DNA of 51,567 nt from Candidatus Aenigmatarchaeota archaeon (GCA_039091255.1 JAWCMQ010000001.1:117976-169542); one strand, 5' to 3'. Counted from the stretch's first letter, positions 5,643-51,567 are shown. Made by a program: numbers and translations. Notes: generated by a model not told the origin, from the sequence alone.

Positions 5643-6314
5643 ATGAACCCTACGCTCAAGTCGTTTGCAGGTGAGACCGACCAGCGCCCGCAGCCCAAGG
5701 GAAAATTTATCGTCATCGAAGGCATCGATGGCTCGGGCAAAGGCACACAGATGTGCCTGCTCGCCCAATGGCTTTACAGGAAGAACAAGAACTTCCATAT
5801 CCTCATGACGCGCGAGCCGAGCCTCTCCGAGCACGGCGAACTTGTGCGCCGCTTGCTTGCGACATCGCGCGAGATGAGTGCGTACGCCCGCGAGTTTTTG
5901 CGGCTGTTCGTAGCCGACCGCGCCGATCACATTCGCCGCCTGATTCAGCCTGCGCTTCGCTACGGCTGCATCGTGCTCTGTGACCGCTACAAGCACTCGA
6001 CCATTGCCTATCAGCAAGCGCAGGGTGTGCCGTTTGACGAAATCATGCTCGCGCACAAGGATTTCCTTGTGCCAGACCTGACGATAGTCCTCGACGCAGA
6101 TCCCCGCGCTGCGCTGGTGCGCAATCTTGGTGATGCAAGCAGGCAGTACCAGGAGGTCTTCGAGCGCGAAGTTGCGTTTACGGAGAAAATGCGCCAAAAC
6201 TATCTTGCGCTGCCCGAACGCCTCAAAGGTGAGCGCATCGCAATCGTTAACGCCAACAGGCCGGTGGATGAGGTCTTCAAAGCGATCTGCGCGGAAGTTG
6301 CGAAGATTCTGTGA
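5643..6314 (+). CDS. tmk: thymidylate (dTMP) kinase
   Basis: P-loop FIVIEGIDGSGKGTQ and the LCDRYKHST motif. ATG at 5643. Confidence 0.85.
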   Translation: MNPTLKSFAGETDQRPQPKGKFIVIEGIDGSGKGTQMCLLAQWLYRKNKNFHILMTREPSLSEHGELVRRLLATSREMSAYAREFLRLFVADRADHIRRLIQPALRYGCIVLCDRYKHSTIAYQQAQGVPFDEIMLAHKDFLVPDLTIVLDADPRAALVRNLGDASRQYQEVFEREVAFTEKMRQNYLALPERLKGERIAIVNANRPVDEVFKAICAEVAKIL

Positions 6315-9064: not shown

Positions 9065-12000
9065 CTATCGAAACCACGTGGGCGGAGAAAATAGCTTTGC
9101 GGCGTTTACCGAATTCAGCGCGTCGATGATGCGTTGCAACTCAAGATTTCCGCCAGGCAGATAGGAAGAAACATGGACATCGGTAACCGTGCACGAATTG
9201 CCGTCACCGTCGCCTACAGGCATGCTCCAGTGAGATTCCAGAACGACGCCAAAGTCTTTATCGTCTACAAATATGCTGTTGAAGTTCTGTTCGTAACTTC
9301 CATAAACAGGCAAACTTTTGGTGCCATCAGGAGAAGTAATCAGGATATGGTCAGACCGAACTTGTATCAAGGCACCATTCGAGGCGATCAGGATGCTATT
9401 TGAGTTGAGGGCATATTTGCCGTCCCTCACATAAGTTCGCGGCAGGCACGATAACTCCGAATTTCCTGGGAAATCGGCGACTCTGCATTCCGCGGGGTGA
9501 TGATACGCATAAAATTCCGTATCTATACATGGCGAACCTACCTCCTCAGCCTCGTCCACAAGCATAAGGACTAATGTTCCAGCTTTGCTGAGTAGGAATC
9601 GAAGTGGAAGAAACAATGTCCCGACGAGCGATGCCGCACCGCGCTTACTTGCGAATATTGACAGTCTTGAACCTATGATGCTCAAAAGTTTGACATACGA
9701 GCTCTTTGACAAAATAAGCTCTTCGGGTGTGTAAGCGCTCAGAACCTCAGCGACCGAGGGGGTGAGTTTCGTAGGAATAATTTCCTTGATGACGTTGTCC
9801 GTAACGCTGAAGAAGCGCCCACCGTAATTAAAGACATGAGCGTCGAACGGCTTCCTTCCGGCTACATTTCTGATGATGTTGGCATGAGGGATGACGCGGC
9901 TTCCAGAAGGCACACCGAAAAGATTTTCGGGTATACCTACCTCGCCCATGTGAGTCTGAAGGAATGTAATACCATACTCTTCGAGAACTTTGCGATCGGC
10001 GGAGAGAAGTTTGAAGGTTAGAAATCCTGTGGAGCTCAGGAAGATCGAACCTGGTGGATAATCGGTGCTGACCGCTTCGCCATACTCGCAATCGGTTTCG
10101 CATTCGGGTTCAGATTCAGAAGCTTCAATGCAAGTTATGCTGCAATTGTAATACTCTAAAGATATGGAAGGCGCGGTGTGCTCATAATCGAGAATTCTCC
10201 CGCTAGCTTGATCGTATATGCTAAGCAAGGCGCTATAGCTTCCGCGTGCTACATCATCCGGAATCTTGAATTCTCGCCAATACCACGCCTCTCCTGGTAG
10301 CGCCCAGACTGTGAGCGCATTAGCTGGGTCGCTATAGCGCACTAATCCATCTTCACTTATCAGCTCCCCGTCGAGCACGACCGGGTATAAGTTGTCATGC
10401 GGATTCATGATGCGATAGCGGATGGTAAATGAGTCTCCCGGACCTAATGTTGGGTTTCTGGGATCAAACTCCCACCCGGAGATATCAAGAGATTGGGAAG
10501 GCATGGCAGGAAGCTTCACAAGCAAATTGTTCCCATTCGCATCCTGGATATGGAAGTCGTCGACAAAAACCTTGCCCCATCCGGTAGCTATGCTGTCCAC
10601 CACATAGATGTAAACTGTCTTGCCAACGTATTGAGACAGGCCGGTACAGTACTCTTCAAAGAACACATCAGTGGCGCGGAGGCTGGTCACCGAGCAGATA
10701 GTAGAATCATCGGACGCATCCTTAAGGAAAACACCGCTCCCGCCGCCCCCTCCGCCTGCTCTCAGGTACCTGAGGCGGTATGCGCCTTCCGGCAGTATGA
10801 AATCAGCAGAGCGCATTGCACCCATTCCGTTGTTTCCGCCAAGATATGCATAATTTGCGCCTTGAAAGTTCTCGCCCTTGCAGACGAAATCGACGCCGTC
10901 TATTCCCACGCCGACCGATATGCCGGGCGAATTGCCCGTTCCGCTCAGCACGGTCCAGTTTCTGGGGTCGATCCTTTCGCTGCAGCCGCTTATCACGGAA
11001 TCGGCTTCGAAATCGTGATTTGGAATCTCAACCCCTTCTCCGAGCGACTGCTGAGGAGATGAAACCTGAAACGTTTTTGCGGCGCACGAACCGCCGCTAC
11101 CGCTATCCAGGCATGCTTTTATCGTGTGAGGACCTATAGAAAGGGCGTATAGTAAATTATGGTTGTCGGTGTATGACGCTTTCGGCGCTATCGGGGATGC
11201 TATCAAGACGCTTTTTACATCATAGCCGTCGATAGAAACGGTATACGCTGGAGATATGTCGCTACAGCGATTATTCGTGACGGTAACTGAAAATTTCACG
11301 CCATTAACGTCGCCGTAAATTTTATCGATGCCTATCGCCGGTTCAGACGGAACGCATGACGGAACCGGCATGGCGGTCCAGCTTTTGGCGGCCCATGGTC
11401 CATCCCAATATGTGTAGCTGCTGGATCCGCCTGTGCCGCCATCGCAGTGATAACGCACTCGGAACTCGCCTGCGCGTGACTGCAGAGTGGAATCTCCTAC
11501 TCCCATGAGCATGCTCTGTGTCACCGAAAACGATGCGCCTACCTGCACAGTGCTCCCGCGGGATCGCGACCCTAAAGGTATGCGCTCTGCCGTGTTGCCG
11601 TCGGAATCTAGGGAACCTGCGGCCTCTGCGTGCTTGTAAATCACAGCCTCGCAGCTGGAGTATTGCAGATGAGGACCGCCTATGGAGCCTACTGCCGTGA
11701 ACTGGACGGTTTCGCCTACGGTATACGAGTCTTTGATACCGCTTACAGTCGGCGCTTGGGCATCCGGCTCGCATTTGTTGTTTATGCACACCCAACCGGA
11801 ATCGCAGGGCGGATTGGAGTAATCGCATCCGTCAAGCTTGCTCAAGCTAAACGTTATTGTCTGCTCGGGCGGAACGGTTGCGCTGACAGTCGAAGATTTG
11901 TAGCCCGTTTTGGTAGCCGTAACCGCATAAGTTCCGGCAGGGAGCGATTGGATTGTGCACGCGTACCGCACTCCGTCCCAACCTGTCGTGCAGGATTTCC

Positions 12001-12625
12001 CTGACGTGGATACGAGAACACTGTCTACGTTGGTTATTGCCATTATTGAGTAGGTGGAAGGTCCAAAAACGTTCACCGTCCTCTCCCTTACCGGCCAACC
12101 TTGCTGGTCAGTCGTTCCTGATGATGGATCCCGCTGGCAGGAGCTGAAATCGCTATTGCACAATGCCGCTCGAAAGTATATCGAAAGAGTTCCGCTAGCC
12201 CCGGCTTTGGGGCGGGCCACAACAGACACGGTTTTTCTTGTATTGGACGACCAGCTCCCGGAAAACTCGACTAGCGGGTAACTGGCCTTTATAGCCGCCC
12301 CGTTTTTGTCGTATATCGAATCTCCCGCGCGGTAAAGTTTGCCGGAGCCGAGATCTCCGCTCCAGGAAACGACGTCCCAATTCGGAAATGAAAGCGAGAT
12401 GTAGCCGTTCGGGTAGCTGCTGCCCGTGTTGTCGTAGCTGACTGTTATGTTCGTCGTCTCATCTGCGTTTATTGTGCTTGGTGACGTGCCGCTGCTGACA
12501 TAGATTATGGCACCAAAGGACGGGCATGCCAGAAGCGAAAAAGCCGCGAAGAATAACAGAACTTTTAGAGAATGAGAAGTAGAAAGACGCGAACCGCGCA
12601 CGGAAATGCGATCGCAGTAACCCAT
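9065..12625 (-). CDS. large secreted multidomain cysteine-rich protein, function unknown
   Basis: 1186-aa uninterrupted ORF. It has an N-terminal signal-like LKVLLFFAAFSLLACPSFGA, beta-rich repeats, a TYAVTATKTGYKSSTVSATV carboxypeptidase-regulatory-like segment, many Cys pairs and a Gly6 run. One hydrophobic stretch (GAASLVGTLFLPLRFLL...TLVLMLV) lies about 200 aa from the C-terminus. Confidence 0.7.
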   Translation of the reverse strand: MGYCDRISVRGSRLSTSHSLKVLLFFAAFSLLACPSFGAIIYVSSGTSPSTINADETTNITVSYDNTGSSYPNGYISLSFPNWDVVSWSGDLGSGKLYRAGDSIYDKNGAAIKASYPLVEFSGSWSSNTRKTVSVVARPKAGASGTLSIYFRAALCNSDFSSCQRDPSSGTTDQQGWPVRERTVNVFGPSTYSIMAITNVDSVLVSTSGKSCTTGWDGVRYACTIQSLPAGTYAVTATKTGYKSSTVSATVPPEQTITFSLSKLDGCDYSNPPCDSGWVCINNKCEPDAQAPTVSGIKDSYTVGETVQFTAVGSIGGPHLQYSSCEAVIYKHAEAAGSLDSDGNTAERIPLGSRSRGSTVQVGASFSVTQSMLMGVGDSTLQSRAGEFRVRYHCDGGTGGSSSYTYWDGPWAAKSWTAMPVPSCVPSEPAIGIDKIYGDVNGVKFSVTVTNNRCSDISPAYTVSIDGYDVKSVLIASPIAPKASYTDNHNLLYALSIGPHTIKACLDSGSGGSCAAKTFQVSSPQQSLGEGVEIPNHDFEADSVISGCSERIDPRNWTVLSGTGNSPGISVGVGIDGVDFVCKGENFQGANYAYLGGNNGMGAMRSADFILPEGAYRLRYLRAGGGGGGSGVFLKDASDDSTICSVTSLRATDVFFEEYCTGLSQYVGKTVYIYVVDSIATGWGKVFVDDFHIQDANGNNLLVKLPAMPSQSLDISGWEFDPRNPTLGPGDSFTIRYRIMNPHDNLYPVVLDGELISEDGLVRYSDPANALTVWALPGEAWYWREFKIPDDVARGSYSALLSIYDQASGRILDYEHTAPSISLEYYNCSITCIEASESEPECETDCEYGEAVSTDYPPGSIFLSSTGFLTFKLLSADRKVLEEYGITFLQTHMGEVGIPENLFGVPSGSRVIPHANIIRNVAGRKPFDAHVFNYGGRFFSVTDNVIKEIIPTKLTPSVAEVLSAYTPEELILSKSSYVKLLSIIGSRLSIFASKRGAASLVGTLFLPLRFLLSKAGTLVLMLVDEAEEVGSPCIDTEFYAYHHPAECRVADFPGNSELSCLPRTYVRDGKYALNSNSILIASNGALIQVRSDHILITSPDGTKSLPVYGSYEQNFNSIFVDDKDFGVVLESHWSMPVGDGDGNSCTVTDVHVSSYLPGGNLELQRIIDALNSVNAAKLFSPPTWFR

Positions 12626-12658: not shown

Positions 12659-12734
12659 CGAAAAGTTCGCCGCGAAATGCTATCGCGGTTGCTGGATTGC
12701 CGACCTCAGCCTTGCACGGCTTCGCGTACACGGA

Positions 12735-12937
12735 TGGGCCCGACGGGATATTCGGCGCAGCCGAATAGGCCAGCGAAGCTCTGCTTCAGCTGCGCATTCG
12801 AACCCGCAACAGCCTGCTTTCTTCAGCTTTCCATCAGCGTTTTCGTTGGACGCTGACAGCTCCTTTTCCGCCAGCGCTTTTGCGCTAGCAAAAGGGCTGT
12901 AAGAGGCAGGTACTCTACCAGGTTGAGCTACGGGCCC
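12735..12937 (-). tRNA. tRNA-Lys (CUU) with two introns (81 nt at 37/38; 48 nt in the T-loop)
   Basis: Exons are 12937-12900, 12818-12796 and 12747-12735, giving a 74-nt cloverleaf. The acceptor GGGCCCG/CGGGCCC pairs 7 of 7 and the D stem is GCTC/GAGT. The anticodon stem is CCTGC/GCAGG with loop CTCTTAA. The T arm is GCGGG-TTCGAAT-CCCGT and the discriminator is A. Confidence 0.85.
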
Positions 12938-31039: not shown

Positions 31040-31167
31040 AGCGGAGTAGAGCAGCCTGGAGTGCTCGCGAGGCCCATACAGCCCTTTTGTTCGCTGCGCT
31101 CACGAAAGCGCTGGCGGAAAAGGCTTGTGTTACCTCGAGGTCGCTGGTTCAAATCCAGCCTCCGCTA
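31040..31167 (+). tRNA. tRNA-Met (CAU) with a 53-nt intron at 37/38; A1:U72 is initiator-like
   Basis: Exons are 31040-31078 and 31132-31167. The acceptor AGCGGAG/CTCCGCT pairs 7 of 7 and the D stem is GAGC/GCTC. The anticodon stem is CGAGG/CCTCG with loop CCCATAA (anticodon at 31075-31077). The T arm is GCTGG-TTCAAAT-CCAGC and the discriminator is A. A CAU anticodon could also be Ile2. Confidence 0.8.
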
Positions 31168-38500: not shown

Positions 38501-40381
38501 ATGATAGGCCTGCTGCTAATTCTGCTTGCTTGCTACATCGGCGTGCTCGCTGCGCGTGGTCTGACCTGTCTGACGTTGCTCGAGCGCTCACTGATCGGCA
38601 TCATCGCGGGATTCCTGATTGCCGCATGGTCGCCGTTCCTCATTTACATCGCGGTGTGGGACCTGGGAATCGCTTGCTCGGCGGCGCTCGCCGCTCTTGC
38701 AGTCATCGCCGCCGTCGCGACGAGAAGATTCGGCATAAGGCGGAAAGACTTCGAGCAGGCATTCGGCCTTGTGCGCAAATCGCTGATGCGAAATCGCCTT
38801 CTACTCATGTTTTTTGTCACGCTCGCGATTTTCTTCACGCTGATTTTCTCCTCGCACATGGCTGAGCCGCGCCCGGACGGCATCTATACGGGCGCTAACG
38901 GCGCATATGGGGATATCCCGTTTCATATGACGCTGATAAACCACTTTCAATACGGCTCAGGCACGCTTGAATACCCGATTTATGCCGGCGCCCGCCTGAC
39001 GTATCCATTCATCTTCGATTTCTTCACCGCTGCGCTTTCGGGTCCAGGCATGCTGGGGCTTAGGGGAGCGATGATGGCATCCTCGTTGATGCTCGTGATG
39101 CTGCTTGTGCTATCCATCTACGCGCTGGCGCTCCGGTTCAGCCAAAGCAAGCGCGCAGCCATGCTTGCCGTGGCGCTAGTCCTCATCGGAGGAGGCTTTG
39201 GATTCGTTCACTACATTGGCGATGCGGCTCAAAGCGGCAATCTTGCTGTCACAAAAGATTACGGCCACTATACTGAGGTGGGAATACACTGGTCTAACGT
39301 AATCGTCCAGTATCTTATCCCCCAGCGAACGCTTCTGCTAGGATTTCCAGCAGGCATCGCGATTCTGCTGCTGCTCTTTGCGGGCTTCGACCAGAGGCGC
39401 GCAACGAACGGCGCAAAGCGCCATCTTGCACCTGCCGGATTTATCATGGGCGCTCTTCCGCTGGTTCACACGCACGTGTTCTTTGCAATCGGAATCGTCT
39501 CTGCGATGTGCGCAGCCGCATACGCCTCGCGCGCATGGCTTCGCTTCTTCCTGCCCGCGTTTTTGCTTGCTTTCCCGCAGGTCATGTGGATTCTTCCGCG
39601 CGCAGCTGGAGAGGGCTTTATGCGCATCCAGCTAGGATGGCTAAGCCGCGCTTCTGGCATGGCAGACTTCGCGCATTTCTGGCTCCTTAACGCAGGCATG
39701 CTATTGGTGCTCGGCTTGGCATGGTTTGTGGCAGAGCGTGAAAGCCATAAGCTTCAGAAGGCATTCATGCTTTCGTTCTGGCTTATCTTCATAATGTCCA
39801 ACATAGTCGCTTTCCAGCCGAACGATTATGACAACATGAAAATTATGCTTCTGTGGTGGCTTGGCATCAGCATAGCATCAGCCACGCTCATCGCTCGCAT
39901 GCTCGAAAAGGGGGCGCCATGGAAGATCCTTGCGGCATGCCTCGTCGCTTTCTCGGTGCTCACAGGTGCGCTTAGCGTTTATCACGAGTATTGCCAACAC
40001 CATCGCATCTTTTCCGCTGAAGACATCGAATTCGCGGAATGGCTGAAAGCGAACACGCCGCACGATGCCGTCTTCCTCACGTCTGACATGCACAACCATC
40101 CCGTGCCTGCGCTTGCAGGCCGCACAGTCGTTCTCGGATATGGCGGATGGATATGGAGCCATGGCCTCGCGCTGTCAAATCGGAGCGCGGACGTAAAGGA
40201 GATGCTGGCCGGCGGCGCTAGGGCGATGGAGCTGCTCGAAAACTACGGTGTCGACTATGTTGCAATCGGTTGGCACGAGCGGCGAAAAGGCGCGAACGAA
40301 ACCTACTTCGCGGAGAACTTCAACCTCGTCTACAACACAAGCACTTACATGGTATTCGATGTTTCGGGCGCGCCTAGCTAG
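38501..40381 (+). CDS. polytopic membrane protein, putative GT-C-type glycosyltransferase (family unknown)
   Basis: 626 aa with 13 or more TM helices. It has an early loop YGDIPFHMTLINHF...YPFIFDFF and a C-terminal soluble domain (...VVLGYGGWIWSHG...). The assignment rests on architecture and context only. Confidence 0.45.
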   Translation: MIGLLLILLACYIGVLAARGLTCLTLLERSLIGIIAGFLIAAWSPFLIYIAVWDLGIACSAALAALAVIAAVATRRFGIRRKDFEQAFGLVRKSLMRNRLLLMFFVTLAIFFTLIFSSHMAEPRPDGIYTGANGAYGDIPFHMTLINHFQYGSGTLEYPIYAGARLTYPFIFDFFTAALSGPGMLGLRGAMMASSLMLVMLLVLSIYALALRFSQSKRAAMLAVALVLIGGGFGFVHYIGDAAQSGNLAVTKDYGHYTEVGIHWSNVIVQYLIPQRTLLLGFPAGIAILLLLFAGFDQRRATNGAKRHLAPAGFIMGALPLVHTHVFFAIGIVSAMCAAAYASRAWLRFFLPAFLLAFPQVMWILPRAAGEGFMRIQLGWLSRASGMADFAHFWLLNAGMLLVLGLAWFVAERESHKLQKAFMLSFWLIFIMSNIVAFQPNDYDNMKIMLLWWLGISIASATLIARMLEKGAPWKILAACLVAFSVLTGALSVYHEYCQHHRIFSAEDIEFAEWLKANTPHDAVFLTSDMHNHPVPALAGRTVVLGYGGWIWSHGLALSNRSADVKEMLAGGARAMELLENYGVDYVAIGWHERRKGANETYFAENFNLVYNTSTYMVFDVSGAPS

Positions 40382-50848: not shown

Positions 50849-51100
50849 CTAGTAAAGTATTCCTATGGCAATTCCGACAATCCCGATGACTATTGAAAAT
50901 GCACCGACCAATCGCTTATTGCCCTTGCAACCGAGACAGCTTCCCAATCCGAGAGCTATTCCAAGTAGGAATGGCCAATCTCCAAAGAATGCCGTGATAA
51001 AACCCAGAATAGACACGACTATTCCAAGAACCCCGACATACATATATTGGTTCTCGTAATCCTGACTTTGCATGCGGAACACTTTTAGTTGCGCTTCCAT
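50849..51100 (-). CDS. small membrane protein (2 TM)
   Basis: 83 aa with ATG at 51100 and two Gly-rich hydrophobic helices. No family recognised. Confidence 0.4.
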   Translation of the reverse strand: MEAQLKVFRMQSQDYENQYMYVGVLGIVVSILGFITAFFGDWPFLLGIALGLGSCLGCKGNKRLVGAFSIVIGIVGIAIGILY

Positions 51101-51164
51101 CGCATTAGCGGATTAGTCATCGGGCTTCTCCGAGGATGAACCGAGGTTCAAATCCTTTCAGATA

Positions 51165-51521
51165 TGCCGGGGGTCGGATTTGAACCGACGAACCCAATCC
51201 TCACCCTTTGCTTTTCCGTGAACGCTTTTGCGAGCGGAGCGAGCAAACGGGTTCTAAGGGACAAGGTCCCTTAATCGCAATGCGACTTCTGAGCTTCGCA
51301 TTTTCCTAAGCATCGCATGCTTGGCATCTTGCGCCTTTTTCTGTAAGCCCTTTTCCGATTTCATCGGAAAAGCGCTTGCGAAAACGGAAGCATGTTCGCT
51401 GCTTTCCTTTCCGCTAACGCTTGTCCGGAAGAGGTTGCGGAAAACGGAAGCAGACATGCTCCCTTCCTTTCCGTTAACGCTTTCCCCCGGAAAGGGTTAG
51501 ACCAGACTTGGCTACCCCGGC
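51165..51521 (-). tRNA. tRNA-Leu (UAG), 357-nt gene with multiple introns (hand model: four)
   Basis: The 5' end is GCCGGGG-TA-GCC-AAGTCTGG... (51521 downward). The 3' end is GTCGG-TTCAAAT-CCGAC-CCCCGGC-A (51189-51165). The anticodon loop CTTAGGA has its first six residues (C32-G37) at 51310-51305, and in the model A38 is supplied by 51267. Proposed exons are about 51521-51499, 51337-51328, 51311-51305, 51267-51253 and 51197-51165. Gene presence has high confidence and the exon map moderate. Confidence 0.7.
51361..51480 (-). repeat. tandem approximately 60-nt duplication inside tRNA-Leu intron 1
   Basis: Unit 1 (51480-51421) is GCGTTAACGGAAAGGAAGGGAGCATGTCTGCTTCCGTTTTCCGCAA.... Unit 2 (51420-51361) is GCGTTAGCGGAAAGGAAAGCAGCGAACATGCTTCCGTTTTCGCAA.... 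Each can fold as a long imperfect hairpin (CGGAAAGGAAG/CTTCCGTTTTCCG). Confidence 0.75.
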
Positions 51522-51545
51522 TTAAGTGAACTTTCTTCAGCAGCA

Positions 51546-51554
51546 TATTTAAAA
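51546..51554 (-). promoter_or_regulatory. TATA box for tRNA-Leu
   Basis: TTTTAAATA on the minus strand, centred about 29 nt upstream of the tRNA 5' end at 51521. Confidence 0.55.
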
Positions 51555-51567
51555 GGTGCGCAATCGG

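What the first reader, a model, noticed from the sequence alone, without database searches (positions are those of the whole stretch)
31079..31131. One conserved intron sequence family is shared by three different tRNA genes
**Met and Lys introns.** The Met intron (31079-31131) and Lys intron 1 (12899-12819, minus strand) begin with the identical 11-mer CAGCCCTTTTG (31079-31089; 12899-12889). They also share an identical 19-mer, AAAGCGCTGGCGGAAAAGG (31105-31123; 12880-12862). Both are inserted at 37/38 and both fold as GCC(C)TTTT...AAAAGGC hairpins.

**Leu introns.** The Leu gene carries the related core GCGYTNNCGGAAARG three times, at 51480-51466, 51420-51406 and 51225-51211. It also has CCCTTT...AAAAGGG closing helices in I1 and I4, which lie at non-anticodon positions.

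**Interpretation.** Near-identical intron cores in non-homologous tRNAs and at different tRNA positions suggest intron spread by a transposition- or duplication-like process. This kind of process has been proposed for Thermoproteales tRNA introns. Alternatively, the conserved core could be a protein- or RNA-binding module.
Basis: seen in the sequence. Interest (0 to 1): 0.8.

Follow-up and report, generated by a model that had tools for sequence, protein, structure and literature searches.

The report
Pan-archaeal folded element fills tRNA introns
The sequence shared by introns of three tRNA genes in this DPANN archaeon is a copy of a short folded repeat (a hairpin followed by a mirror-image purine tail) that occurs in tRNA introns, tRNA trailers and intergenic DNA across many archaeal phyla and matches no catalogued RNA family.

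Summary
The 11-mer and the 19-mer are exact at both sites, and the core GCGYTNNCGGAAARG occurs 5 times in the window against 0.6 expected. Every copy lies in an intron of tRNA-Met, tRNA-Lys or a four-intron tRNA-Leu. A fourth gene, tRNA-Glu, just past the window end carries more copies.

The shared core is not specific to this lineage.

In those copies, positions the search did not fix are also conserved or covary:
- A 4-bp helix joins the 5' flank N-A-R-C to G-Y-U-N' in the core, with all four Watson-Crick pair types represented.
- This helix extends a CUUUU/AAAAG hairpin.
- The 3' purine tail is the in-register mirror image of the hairpin's purine strand, which suggests a three-stranded fold.

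Rfam 15 has no match, and a literature search for the core strings found nothing.

Best reading: a proliferating, self-folding element forms the body of these bulge-helix-bulge introns. Its function and its means of spreading are unresolved.

The parts
31040..31167 (+). tRNA-Met(CAT) gene. It has A1:U72 (initiator-like) and C33. Its single intron is at 37/38.
   Evidence: ARAGORN with introns allowed. The spliced 75-nt product is recognised. The gene is identical in Logan SRR27730042.
31079..31131 (+). Met intron (53 nt), made of one element copy plus a 9-nt 3' adaptor (GCU-UGUG-UU). The splice motif reads: h CGAGG/CCUCG, H CCCA/UGUG (one mismatch), bulges UA|C and UU|A, h' AGCC(C)UUUU/AAAAGGCU.
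   Evidence: Covariance-model (CM) hit at 31078-31134, 43.4 bits, E=5e-12. BHB scoring. Fold.
31105..31123 (+). It corresponds to R1 (A-rich strand), the linker C-GCUG-G-CG and R2 (GAAAAG) of the element.
12735..12937 (-). tRNA-Lys(CTT) gene with two introns.
   Evidence: The spliced 74-nt product is recognised by ARAGORN.
12819..12899 (-). Lys intron 1 (81 nt, position 37/38). Unit a is a full element copy at about 12899-12856. Unit b is a degenerate copy with core ACGCUGAUGGAAAGC.
   Evidence: CM hit at 12851-12900, 46.2 bits. Sequence. Paralogue of tRNA-Glu I2.
12749..12796 (-). Lys intron 2 (48 nt, position 59/60 in the T-loop). It has a perfect hBHBh' motif (H UUCG/CGAA) and is not a member of the element family.
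   Evidence: BHB score 14 of 14. No CM hit.
51165..51521 (-). tRNA-Leu(CAG) gene with four introns.
   Evidence: The 84-nt spliced product is recognised by ARAGORN. Exon and intron sequences. The gene is identical in L001 and L002.
51338..51500 (-). Leu intron 1 (163 nt, D-loop). It contains sense copy 1a (51500-51454), weak sense copy 1b (51438-51394) and a tail-to-tail antisense copy. The junction motif has H UCUG/CAGA and h' UAA(C)CC/GG(C)UUA.
   Evidence: CM hits of 42.4 and 15.9 bits. BHB scoring.
51344..51398 (+). Element copy on the strand opposite to the tRNA-Leu gene, inside intron 1. It reads AAGC-CCUUUUCC...GGAAAAG-C-GCUU-G-CG....
   Evidence: CM hit of 41 bits, E=3e-11. The same tail-to-tail arrangement occurs in L199.
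51295..51327 (-). Leu intron 2 (33 nt, anticodon stem, about 30/31). H is a perfect CGCA/UGCG. It is not an element copy.
   Evidence: Manual BHB analysis; required to obtain the anticodon stem CAAGG/CCUUG.
51268..51287 (-). Leu intron 3 (20 nt, position 37/38), with a good hBHBh' motif. It is not an element copy.
   Evidence: BHB score 14 of 16.
51197..51253 (-). Leu intron 4 (57 nt, variable loop), made of one element copy (GAAC-CCGUUUG...AAAAG-C-GUUC-A-CG-GAAAAG) plus an adaptor.
   Evidence: CM hit at 51199-51255, 48 bits, E=1.5e-13. It matches the Met intron at 34 of 43 positions. BHB scoring.

Best explanation
**What it is.** The shared intron sequence is a copy of a short (about 30-60 nt), self-folding, multi-copy element that is widespread in Archaea. 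This window comes from a Candidatus Aenigmatarchaeota MAG.

**Consensus.** 5'-N-A-R-C | C | CUUUU(pyrimidine run) - loop or small GC hairpin - (purine run)AAAAG | C | G-Y-U-N' | R'-C-G | GAAAAG(purine run)-3'.

**What is shown by covariation.**
- N-A-R-C pairs with G-Y-U-N' (helix P0).
- After a C.C mismatch, P0 stacks on the CUUUU/AAAAG hairpin (helix P1).
- The 3' purine tail (R2) repeats the purine strand of P1 (R1) in mirror order and in register, and it tracks the hairpin's length and its irregular G positions.

**What is inferred.**
- The tail folds back onto the hairpin as a third strand. This could be a triple helix or the A-rich groove-crossing loop of an H-type pseudoknot.
- In the tRNA genes of this window the element forms the intron body. 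Its pyrimidine strand pairs with R2 and a short 3' adaptor, giving the h' helix next to the splice-site bulges. A broad-specificity splicing endonuclease can then excise it.
- The same core appears in Met, Lys, Leu (and Glu) because the element has multiplied into them by duplication or insertion. Nested, tandem and inverted copies point to a process at the DNA level.
- The core stays constant because it is the three-stranded core of the fold plus its turn.
- It is not known whether the element is purely selfish or also serves the host.
For: **Distribution.**
- Of these, 98 are archaeal from many phyla and 20 are bacterial, against about 29 expected by chance over the whole collection (my calculation).
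- The same pattern gave only 2 hits in 2.9 million viral contigs.

**Conservation at positions the search did not fix (103 copies).**
- Flank A is present in 96, R in 101 and C in 96.

**Covariation of the hairpin.**
- The N(-4):N' pair is AU 40, CG 27, UA 18 and GC 15, and 102 of 104 are paired.
- The R(-2):Y pair is AU 76 and GC 24.
- The whole hairpin is 92.7% paired. Its covariation score is 0.275 against 0.102 for shuffles (0 of 500 reach it) and at most 0.124 when the partners are slid.

**Mirror tail.**
- R2 is identical to R1 read in reverse at 182 of 212 free positions. The permutation null is 107 +/- 8, with a maximum of 131 in 2000 permutations.
- Where R1 has G, R2 has G in 13 of 21 cases. 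Where R1 has A, R2 has G in 8 of 179.
- The mirror runs for 14 of 14 positions in L148, L199, L149 and L212.

**Search with the model built from these copies.**
- In the window it finds 5 copies at 41-48 bits and one weak copy at 15.9 bits, all inside the three tRNA genes. It finds one more in tRNA-Glu just beyond the window.
- In 665 kb of archaeal loci it gives 132 hits, including about 28 copies the exact pattern had missed.

**Evidence within this genome.**
- Lys I1 unit a and Glu I2 unit a differ at only 5 positions.
- All five are the compensatory set CAGC/GCUG+G to UAAC/GUUA+A.

**Folding.** The predicted minimum-energy fold of typical copies is exactly P0 + mismatch + P1 with a free A-rich tail (z = -2.9 to -4.1).

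**Contexts.**
- 31 pattern hits have a sense T-arm downstream.
- 26 yield an ARAGORN tRNA once the element is cut out.
- Four trailer copies start exactly at discriminator base N73.

**Not catalogued.** No Rfam 15 family matches. No paper contains the core strings.
Against: - No direct sign of mobility was found: no target-site duplications, no empty sites, and no associated transposase or reverse transcriptase.
- The third-strand contact is inferred from sequence symmetry alone.
- To my knowledge, purine.purine-pyrimidine triple helices are well established for DNA but not for natural RNA.
- The window's own intron copies do not adopt the family's consensus hairpin in their predicted minimum-energy fold. 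They use an outer Y:R2 helix and an inner GC hairpin instead.
Copy numbers and taxonomic spread are therefore lower bounds, biased towards this subtype.
- Orientation relative to protein-coding genes is not clearly biased: 10 sense against 5 antisense just after long ORFs.
- The counts of G.U against A.C mismatches do not single out one strand (26 against 19).
- Covariation in inverted repeats can also arise from template-switch mutation in DNA without selection on an RNA. This caveat does not apply to the mirror repeat.
Confidence: 0.6

Rival explanations
1. The element is a host-functional cis-acting RNA module. Candidate roles are a nuclease-resistant 3'-end or processing module, a protein-binding platform, or a two-state switch. 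Its conserved core is kept by selection for that function, and its presence in introns is incidental or regulatory. The two states would be the P0+P1 hairpin against the Y:R2 helix that forms the splice motif.
For: - Copies are retained at orthologous sites with more conservation than the neighbouring coding sequence. One example is four ANME-1 loci, 5 nt from the start of the same ORF. Another is the initiator-tRNA trailers of two Altiarchaeia genomes, where hairpin length and tail change together.
- Y pairs with two mutually exclusive partners: R(-2) in 99 of 103 copies and R' in 95 of 103.
- Trailer copies begin exactly at N73, and several copies overlap a stop codon.
- In L203, L155, L227 and L157 the tail continues as the complement of the hairpin loop, a preQ1-I-like pseudoknot topology.
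Against: - No partner protein or ligand is known.
- The contexts are heterogeneous (introns at any position, trailers, both sides of genes, inside sRNAs), and antisense and tandem copies exist.
- These features are typical of selfish repeats.
- Orientation relative to ORFs is not significantly biased.
Confidence: 0.3
2. The element is a REP- or MITE-like DNA element moved as single-stranded DNA by a host or insertion-sequence enzyme, for example an HUH/Y1 transposase. The hairpin, the flank-to-internal tetranucleotide pairing and the purine triplex would form in ssDNA and serve transposition. The RNA would be a by-product that must be spliced out.
For: - Copies are multi-copy, nested, tandem (four copies at a 50-nt period in L178) and in tail-to-tail inverted pairs (Leu I1, L199).
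- An antisense copy inside an intron cannot arise by reverse splicing.
- The third-strand base rules seen (G on G:C, A on A:T, some T on A:T) are those of the antiparallel purine motif of DNA triplexes (my knowledge).
- Pairing between a flanking tetranucleotide and an internal tetranucleotide recalls guide-to-cleavage-site pairing in IS200/IS605 (my knowledge).
- Nearly identical copies occur in distant phyla: the Met intron here and the L191 copy in Altiarchaeota.
Against: - In introns the N-A-R-C strand is not derived from the target. It is absent from the exon sequence of tRNA-Glu and tRNA-Lys.
- No terminal inverted repeats, target duplications or linked transposase were seen.
- Copies in tRNA genes are overwhelmingly in the sense orientation: 31 against 6 at most.
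- The element is essentially absent from viral contigs.
Confidence: 0.25
3. This is ordinary, lineage-restricted intron transposition or gene conversion among the tRNA genes of one genome, as described for Thermoproteales, with no wider element involved.
For: Whole-intron similarity exists between different tRNAs and positions: Met against Leu I4 at 79%, and Lys I1 against Glu I2 at about 85%.
Against: The same core, flank and fold are found in 98 archaeal loci from many phyla, and also outside tRNA genes.
Confidence: 0.08
4. The conserved core is a box C/D guide RNA housed in the intron, as in archaeal tRNA-Trp, or it is an assembly artefact from collapsed repeats.
For: Lys unit b contains UGAUGG and CUGA close together.
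Against: - The Met, Leu and consensus copies have no C box (RUGAUGA) or D box (CUGA).
- In Lys unit b the two box-like motifs lie too close together to leave room for a guide.
- The genes are identical in independent assemblies.
Confidence: 0.02

Closest known systems
Transposed bulge-helix-bulge tRNA introns of Thermoproteales (Fujishima et al. 2010; reviewed in PMC4033280 and PMC4090602)
   Same: Similar intron sequences occur in different tRNA species at canonical and non-canonical positions. Single tRNAs carry multiple introns. The host lineage has a splicing endonuclease of broad specificity.
   Different: - The host here is a DPANN archaeon (Aenigmatarchaeota).
- The shared sequence is conserved across phyla.
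- The shared sequence has a covariation-supported fold with a mirror-repeat tail.
- The shared sequence also occurs outside introns.
- One gene has four introns, whereas the reviewed maximum is three.
Bacterial REP/BIME elements and other MITE-like extragenic palindromes
   Same: Both are short, multi-copy hairpin elements with a conserved tetranucleotide at the foot. Both lie next to gene ends and occur as tandem and inverted pairs.
   Different: - This element is archaeal.
- About a third or more of the sampled copies lie inside tRNA genes as introns.
- It carries a third, mirror-repeat strand.
- No RAYT-like transposase is known for it.
Triple-helix and pseudoknot RNA elements (PAN/MALAT1 ENE with an A-rich tract; preQ1-I and SAM-II riboswitch pseudoknots; telomerase RNA)
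   Same: A hairpin is combined with an A-rich 3' strand that folds back along the stem. In four copies the tail ends by pairing with the hairpin loop, as in preQ1-I.
   Different: - Known natural major-groove RNA triplexes use two pyrimidine strands and one purine strand (U.A-U).
- This element has one pyrimidine strand and two purine strands, with identity rules (A on A:U, G on G:C).
- No ligand or 3'-end role has been shown.
IS200/IS605 ends (guide tetranucleotide pairing with the cleavage-site tetranucleotide beside a subterminal hairpin)
   Same: A 4-nt segment beside the hairpin foot covaries with a 4-nt segment on the other side.
   Different: Here the two segments form a plain Watson-Crick extension of the hairpin. 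Both lie inside the intron. There are no separate left and right ends and no linked tnpA or tnpB.
Box C/D sRNA inside the archaeal tRNA-Trp intron
   Same: Both are conserved functional RNA modules housed in a tRNA intron.
   Different: The element has no C or D boxes and no guide region.

Membership tests
Archaeal BHB (bulge-helix-bulge) tRNA introns | Removing the insert restores a canonical tRNA cloverleaf. | tested here: met
   ARAGORN recognises the spliced Met (75 nt), Lys (74 nt), Leu (84 nt) and Glu (75 nt) products.
Archaeal BHB (bulge-helix-bulge) tRNA introns | Two 3-nt bulges separated by a 4-bp helix at the exon-intron junctions, in strict or relaxed form. | tested here: met
   - Met: h 5/5, H 3/4, h' 4/5.
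- Lys I2: perfect.
- Leu I3: 14/16.
- Leu I1 and I4: H 4/4 with a good h' but a weak h (relaxed HBh').
- Lys I1 and Leu I2: relaxed.

Archaeal BHB (bulge-helix-bulge) tRNA introns | Excision by the splicing endonuclease EndA and ligation by RtcB. | not testable with these tools
   This needs an in vitro cleavage assay or RNA-seq. The literature links DPANN EndA variants carrying the L3 loop with disrupted tRNA genes (PMC5829648).
Transposed tRNA introns (Thermoproteales type) | High sequence similarity between introns of different tRNA species at different positions. | tested here: met
   Met against Leu I4: 34 of 43 positions. Met against Lys I1: two exact blocks of 11 and 19 nt. Lys I1 against Glu I2: about 85%.
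Transposed tRNA introns (Thermoproteales type) | The family is confined to introns of one lineage. | tested here: not met
   98 archaeal loci from many phyla carry it, and many copies lie outside tRNA genes.
Any Rfam 15 family | A match at the gathering score, or a meaningful sub-threshold match. | tested here: not met
   - Gathering threshold: no match in the window; only tRNA on L120, L149, L178 and L203; nothing on L118, L191, L199 and L128.
- E-value mode: window 51100-51567 and L149 1380-1700 gave only chance-level hits apart from tRNA.
Box C/D sRNA-bearing introns | C (RUGAUGA) and D (CUGA) boxes with guide spacing of 10-12 nt. | tested here: not met
   These are absent from the Met, Leu and consensus copies. 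Lys unit b has UGAUGG and CUGA only 5 nt apart.
REP/MITE-like repeats | A multi-copy hairpin element near gene ends. | tested here: met
   132 covariance-model hits in 665 kb of archaeal loci, with tandem and inverted pairs.
REP/MITE-like repeats | A cognate transposase, terminal inverted repeats or target-site duplications. | tested here: inconclusive
   Inspection of the flanks showed no duplications or terminal repeats. Co-occurrence with an enzyme was not tested.
ENE-type RNA triple helix | Two U-rich strands clamp one A-rich strand (U.A-U). | tested here: not met
   The strand make-up is one pyrimidine and two purine strands in the tRNA-sense orientation. The complementary strand would have the U.A-U make-up.
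H-type pseudoknot with an A-rich loop 3 (preQ1-I-like topology) | The 3' tail pairs with the hairpin loop. | tested here: inconclusive
   This is seen in L203, L155, L227 and L157 (GUUACAC against GUGUAA) but not in most copies.

The most novel reading that the evidence does not exclude
This is an undescribed pan-archaeal class of three-stranded nucleic-acid element: a hairpin whose purine strand is repeated in mirror order as a fold-back tail. It would act as a mobile 'intron-former'. By inserting into tRNA and other non-coding genes and supplying a ready-made helix for the splicing endonuclease, it would explain how non-canonical and multiple tRNA introns arise and spread in DPANN and other archaea. 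It would also be the first natural purine-motif triple helix under selection, whether formed in RNA or in ssDNA.
Probability: 0.35. Interest if true: 0.9.

Novelty: new variant of a known kind. Interest (0 to 1): 0.8.

Why it matters
The origin of non-canonical and multiple tRNA introns in Archaea is an open question. The only proposed mechanism, intron transposition, rests on sequence similarity within one order.

This work identifies a defined, searchable element shared across phyla. It fills introns at many tRNA positions and also occurs outside introns, in tRNA trailers and intergenic DNA. That makes intron gain directly testable through census, insertion polymorphism and in vitro splicing.

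The mirror-repeat covariation predicts an unusual three-stranded fold. A few oligonucleotide experiments could confirm or refute it.

A covariance model of the element would also help to find the tRNA genes that standard tools miss in DPANN genomes.

Tried and rejected
- **Standard tRNA detection.** ARAGORN without introns and Rfam at the gathering threshold found no tRNA in the window. The genes had to be rebuilt by hand.
- **First Leu model.** My first model used anticodon UAG in the loop CUUAGGA. I dropped it because its flanking 16-nt 'introns' have no BHB motif.
- **Core-only pattern.** In viral contigs it returned only single hits with no clustering, which I read as chance matches (112 stretches).
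- **K-turn / L7Ae site.** Rejected. The 5' strand lacks the required GA after a 3-nt bulge in most copies.
- **Hammerhead or other small ribozyme.** Rejected. The order and spacing of the GAAA and CUGAUG-like motifs do not fit.
- **CRISPR repeat, integron attC, origin-recognition box or dif site.** Rejected on sequence and architecture.
- **Intrinsic terminator (U-tract).** Weakened by T7 runs inside tRNA-Ser introns in L178.
- **N-A-R-C as target-derived sequence.** Rejected for intron copies. It is absent from the exons.
- **Strand assignment from mismatch types.** Counts of G.U against A.C mismatches were inconclusive.
- **Orientation relative to ORFs.** Inconclusive.
- **Literature searches.** Searches for triple helix, DPANN repeats and ANME-1 motifs found nothing relevant.

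Full report
**1.
- The 11-mer CAGCCCTTTTG and the 19-mer AAAGCGCTGGCGGAAAAGG are exact at the stated coordinates on the stated strands.
- The degenerate core GCGYTNNCGGAAARG occurs five times in 51.6 kb against 0.63 expected. None of 100 shuffles reached five.
- With introns allowed, ARAGORN finds tRNA-Met(CAT) at 31040-31167 with a 53-nt intron, plus the acceptor and T arms of a third gene.

**2. Gene models.** I rebuilt the genes using the geometry of the bulge-helix-bulge (BHB) splice motif. The geometry comes from established knowledge: two 3-nt bulges separated by a 4-bp helix, with cuts after the second bulge nucleotide.
- *tRNA-Met:* the intron is 31079-31131 at position 37/38. The motif is h CGAGG/CCUCG, H CCCA/UGUG (one mismatch), bulges UA|C and UU|A, and h' AGCC(C)UUUU/AAAAGGCU.
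- *tRNA-Lys(CTT), 12937-12735, minus strand:* intron 1 is 12899-12819 at 37/38. Intron 2 is 12796-12749 at 59/60 and has a perfect motif.
- *tRNA-Leu(CAG), 51521-51165, minus strand:* four introns must be removed. I1 is 163 nt (D-loop), I2 is 33 nt (anticodon stem), I3 is 20 nt (37/38) and I4 is 57 nt (variable loop).
- All three spliced products are recognised by ARAGORN.
- A review gives three introns as the known maximum for one tRNA gene (PMC4033280).

**3. The introns are homologous beyond the core.**
- The Met intron and Leu I4 match at 34 of 43 positions without gaps.
- The Met intron and Lys I1 differ only by indels in the middle.
- L001 is another assembly of the same genome and extends past the window end. 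It carries a tRNA-Glu(CTC) gene with two more introns.
- The 37/38 intron of that gene is a two-unit paralogue of Lys I1.
- The first units of the two introns differ at five positions only: CAGC...GCUGG against UAAC...GUUAA.
- The genes are identical in independent assemblies, so collapsed repeats are excluded.
- NCBI names the window's proteins as coming from a Candidatus Aenigmatarchaeota MAG.

**4. The core is not lineage-specific.**
- I scanned one genome per GTDB species for CCKTTT, then a 4-30 nt gap, then AAGCGYTNNCGGAAAAG, written as its reverse complement.
- Twenty are bacterial, single and inside ORFs. This fits the roughly 29 chance hits I calculate for 596 Gb.
- Ninety-eight are archaeal: Aenigmat-, Woese-, Pace-, Nano-, Micr-, Iain-, Parv-, Undin- and Altiarchaeota, ANME-1/Methanophagales, Syntrophoarchaeum, Methanosarcinales, Thermoplasmata, Hydrothermarchaeaceae and Nitrosotalea.
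- The same pattern found 2 hits in 2.9 million viral contigs.

**5. Where the copies lie**.
- Many are in tRNA introns, in the D-loop, at 37/38, in the variable loop and in the T-loop. These are almost always in the tRNA-sense orientation.
- Four are in tRNA trailers and start exactly at discriminator base N73.
- Some lie right after stop codons or just upstream of genes.
- Two lie inside what looks like a box C/D sRNA.
- One set forms a four-copy tandem array inside a tRNA-Ser intron.

**6. Anatomy of the element.**
- *Flank.* Positions the search did not fix are conserved. The three bases before CCUUUU read A-R-C in 96-101 of 103 copies.
- *Helix P0.*
  - The outermost pair is AU 40, CG 27, UA 18 and GC 15.
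  - The third pair is AU 76 and GC 24.
- *Whole hairpin.*
  - P0, a C.C mismatch and the CUUUU.../...AAAAG helix (P1) form one hairpin that is 92.7% paired.
  - Its covariation score is 0.275 against 0.102 for shuffles (0 of 500) and at most 0.124 for slid partners.
  - This is also the predicted minimum-energy fold of typical copies.
- *Alternative fold.* The fold that pairs the pyrimidine strand with the last GAAAAG and extends outward is supported in only about 20% of copies, which are the tRNA-intron ones.

**7. The mirror tail.**
- After a 3-nt connector (R'-C-G), the sequence GAAAAG... repeats the purine strand of P1 in reverse order, not as a complement. It is in register from the connector.
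- It continues for as long as the hairpin does and reproduces irregular G positions. Examples are L148, L199, L177, L149/L212 and L203.
- At free positions 182 of 212 are identical. The permutation null is 107 +/- 8 with a maximum of 131 in 2000 permutations.
- G in R1 predicts G in R2 in 13 of 21 cases, against 8 of 179 when R1 has A.
- No copying mechanism produces mirror repeats, so this points to selection for a third strand lying antiparallel to the purine strand.
- That strand could form a triple helix or be the groove-crossing strand of an H-type pseudoknot. In four copies the tail goes on to pair with the hairpin loop.
- This three-stranded fold is an inference. It has not been shown.

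**8. How the window's copies fit.**
- A covariance model built from 106 copies finds five copies in the window at 41-48 bits and one weak copy at 15.9 bits. All lie inside the three tRNA genes.
- One of them lies on the strand opposite to tRNA-Leu, tail-to-tail with a sense copy. The same inverted pair occurs in L199.
- Leu copy 1a shows a three-way change relative to the consensus: CUUUCC / GGAAAG / GAAAGG.
- The Lys-to-Glu change keeps P0 paired even though it costs a mismatch in the alternative fold.
- In these introns the predicted minimum-energy fold uses the Y:R2 helix plus a short adaptor. That helix is exactly the h' helix of the splice motif.
- In 37/38 introns of other genomes, cutting out the element often leaves only 11-14 nt of intron.

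**9. Interpretation.**
- The best-supported reading is a proliferating, self-folding element that forms the body of BHB introns. It has spread among tRNA genes here, and among non-coding sites across Archaea.
- It is unresolved whether it moves as DNA or is a host-useful RNA module.
  - Nested, tandem and antisense copies, together with base rules like those of DNA triplexes, favour movement as DNA.
  - Retention at orthologous sites in ANME-1 and Altiarchaeia, and two alternative pairing partners for Y, favour a host-useful RNA module.
- Orientation relative to ORFs (10 against 5) and mismatch types do not decide between the two readings.
- No Rfam family matches.
- No paper in the searchable library contains the core strings or describes such an element.
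- DPANN splicing endonucleases with an extra loop have been linked to disrupted tRNA genes (PMC5829648). This fits excision of these relaxed motifs.

**10. Verdict.**
- The conserved core is the structural heart of a widespread and apparently undescribed archaeal element.

Noticed in passing
window 51165-51521 (minus strand): tRNA-Leu(CAG) needs four introns removed (163, 33, 20 and 57 nt) and has a 7-nt exon. The reviewed maximum for one tRNA gene is three (PMC4033280).
   Followed up: partly
window 51268-51327 (minus strand): Leu I2, exon 3 and I3 contain a nested second anticodon arm (CGAUG-CUUAGGA...CAUUG). Alternative removal would give a tRNA-Leu(UAG) that ARAGORN also accepts, but the flanking 16-nt segments have no BHB motif. 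I2 and I3 also resemble each other (GCAUGCGAU against GCAUUGCGAU).
   Followed up: partly
L001 8076-8285 (just beyond the window's right end): This is a tRNA-Glu(CTC) gene with a 51-nt D-loop intron (degenerate element copy) and an 83-nt intron at 37/38 that is a two-unit paralogue of Lys intron 1. All four tRNA genes in about 60 kb therefore carry the element.
   Followed up: yes
L236 about 900-960 (GCA_039090635.1, contig JAWCPN010000019.1) against window 12690-12760: Another assembly has the same sequence downstream of tRNA-Lys. Upstream it holds only an intron-less T-arm and 3'-end fragment (TTGCGGGTTCGAATCCCGTCGGGCCCA), preceded by unrelated coding sequence. This looks like the att-type remnant of an integrated element, or a split gene.
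   Followed up: no
window 31040-31167: tRNA-Met has the initiator-like A1:U72 pair but C at position 33 (anticodon loop CCCAUAA) and only two G:C pairs at the bottom of the anticodon stem.
   Followed up: no
L118 about 6060-6200 and L191 about 480-620: Element copies sit between CUGA and UGAUGA motifs within conserved flanks (GACGAAGCGAACAACC.CUGAC ... GAUGACUAAUAGGCGAAC.GAGGGGC) in two unrelated archaea. This is possibly the internal loop of a box C/D sRNA. Rfam gives no match.
   Followed up: partly
L120, L146, L182 and L193 (ANME-1); L212 and L229 (Altiarchaeia): The element is retained at orthologous sites. In ANME-1 it lies 5 nt from the start codon of a nucleotidyltransferase-like ORF on the opposite strand. 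In Altiarchaeia it lies directly after the initiator tRNA. The element is better conserved than the adjacent coding sequence.
   Followed up: partly
L178 7646-7851: Four tandem copies at a 50-nt period form an intron of about 200 nt at 37/38 in a tRNA-Ser. Each copy carries a T7 run, which argues against the U-tract acting as an efficient terminator.
   Followed up: no
L149 1458-1666: One Altiarchaeota tRNA carries the element twice: once in an intron and once starting at its discriminator base in the trailer.
   Followed up: no
window 9065-12625 (minus strand) and 38501-40381 (plus strand): These are large ORFs of 1186 aa and 626 aa. The first has only a weak partial NCBIfam match (LIC13341 family surface-exposed protein, 40 bits against a 550-bit cutoff) and the second has none.
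   Followed up: no
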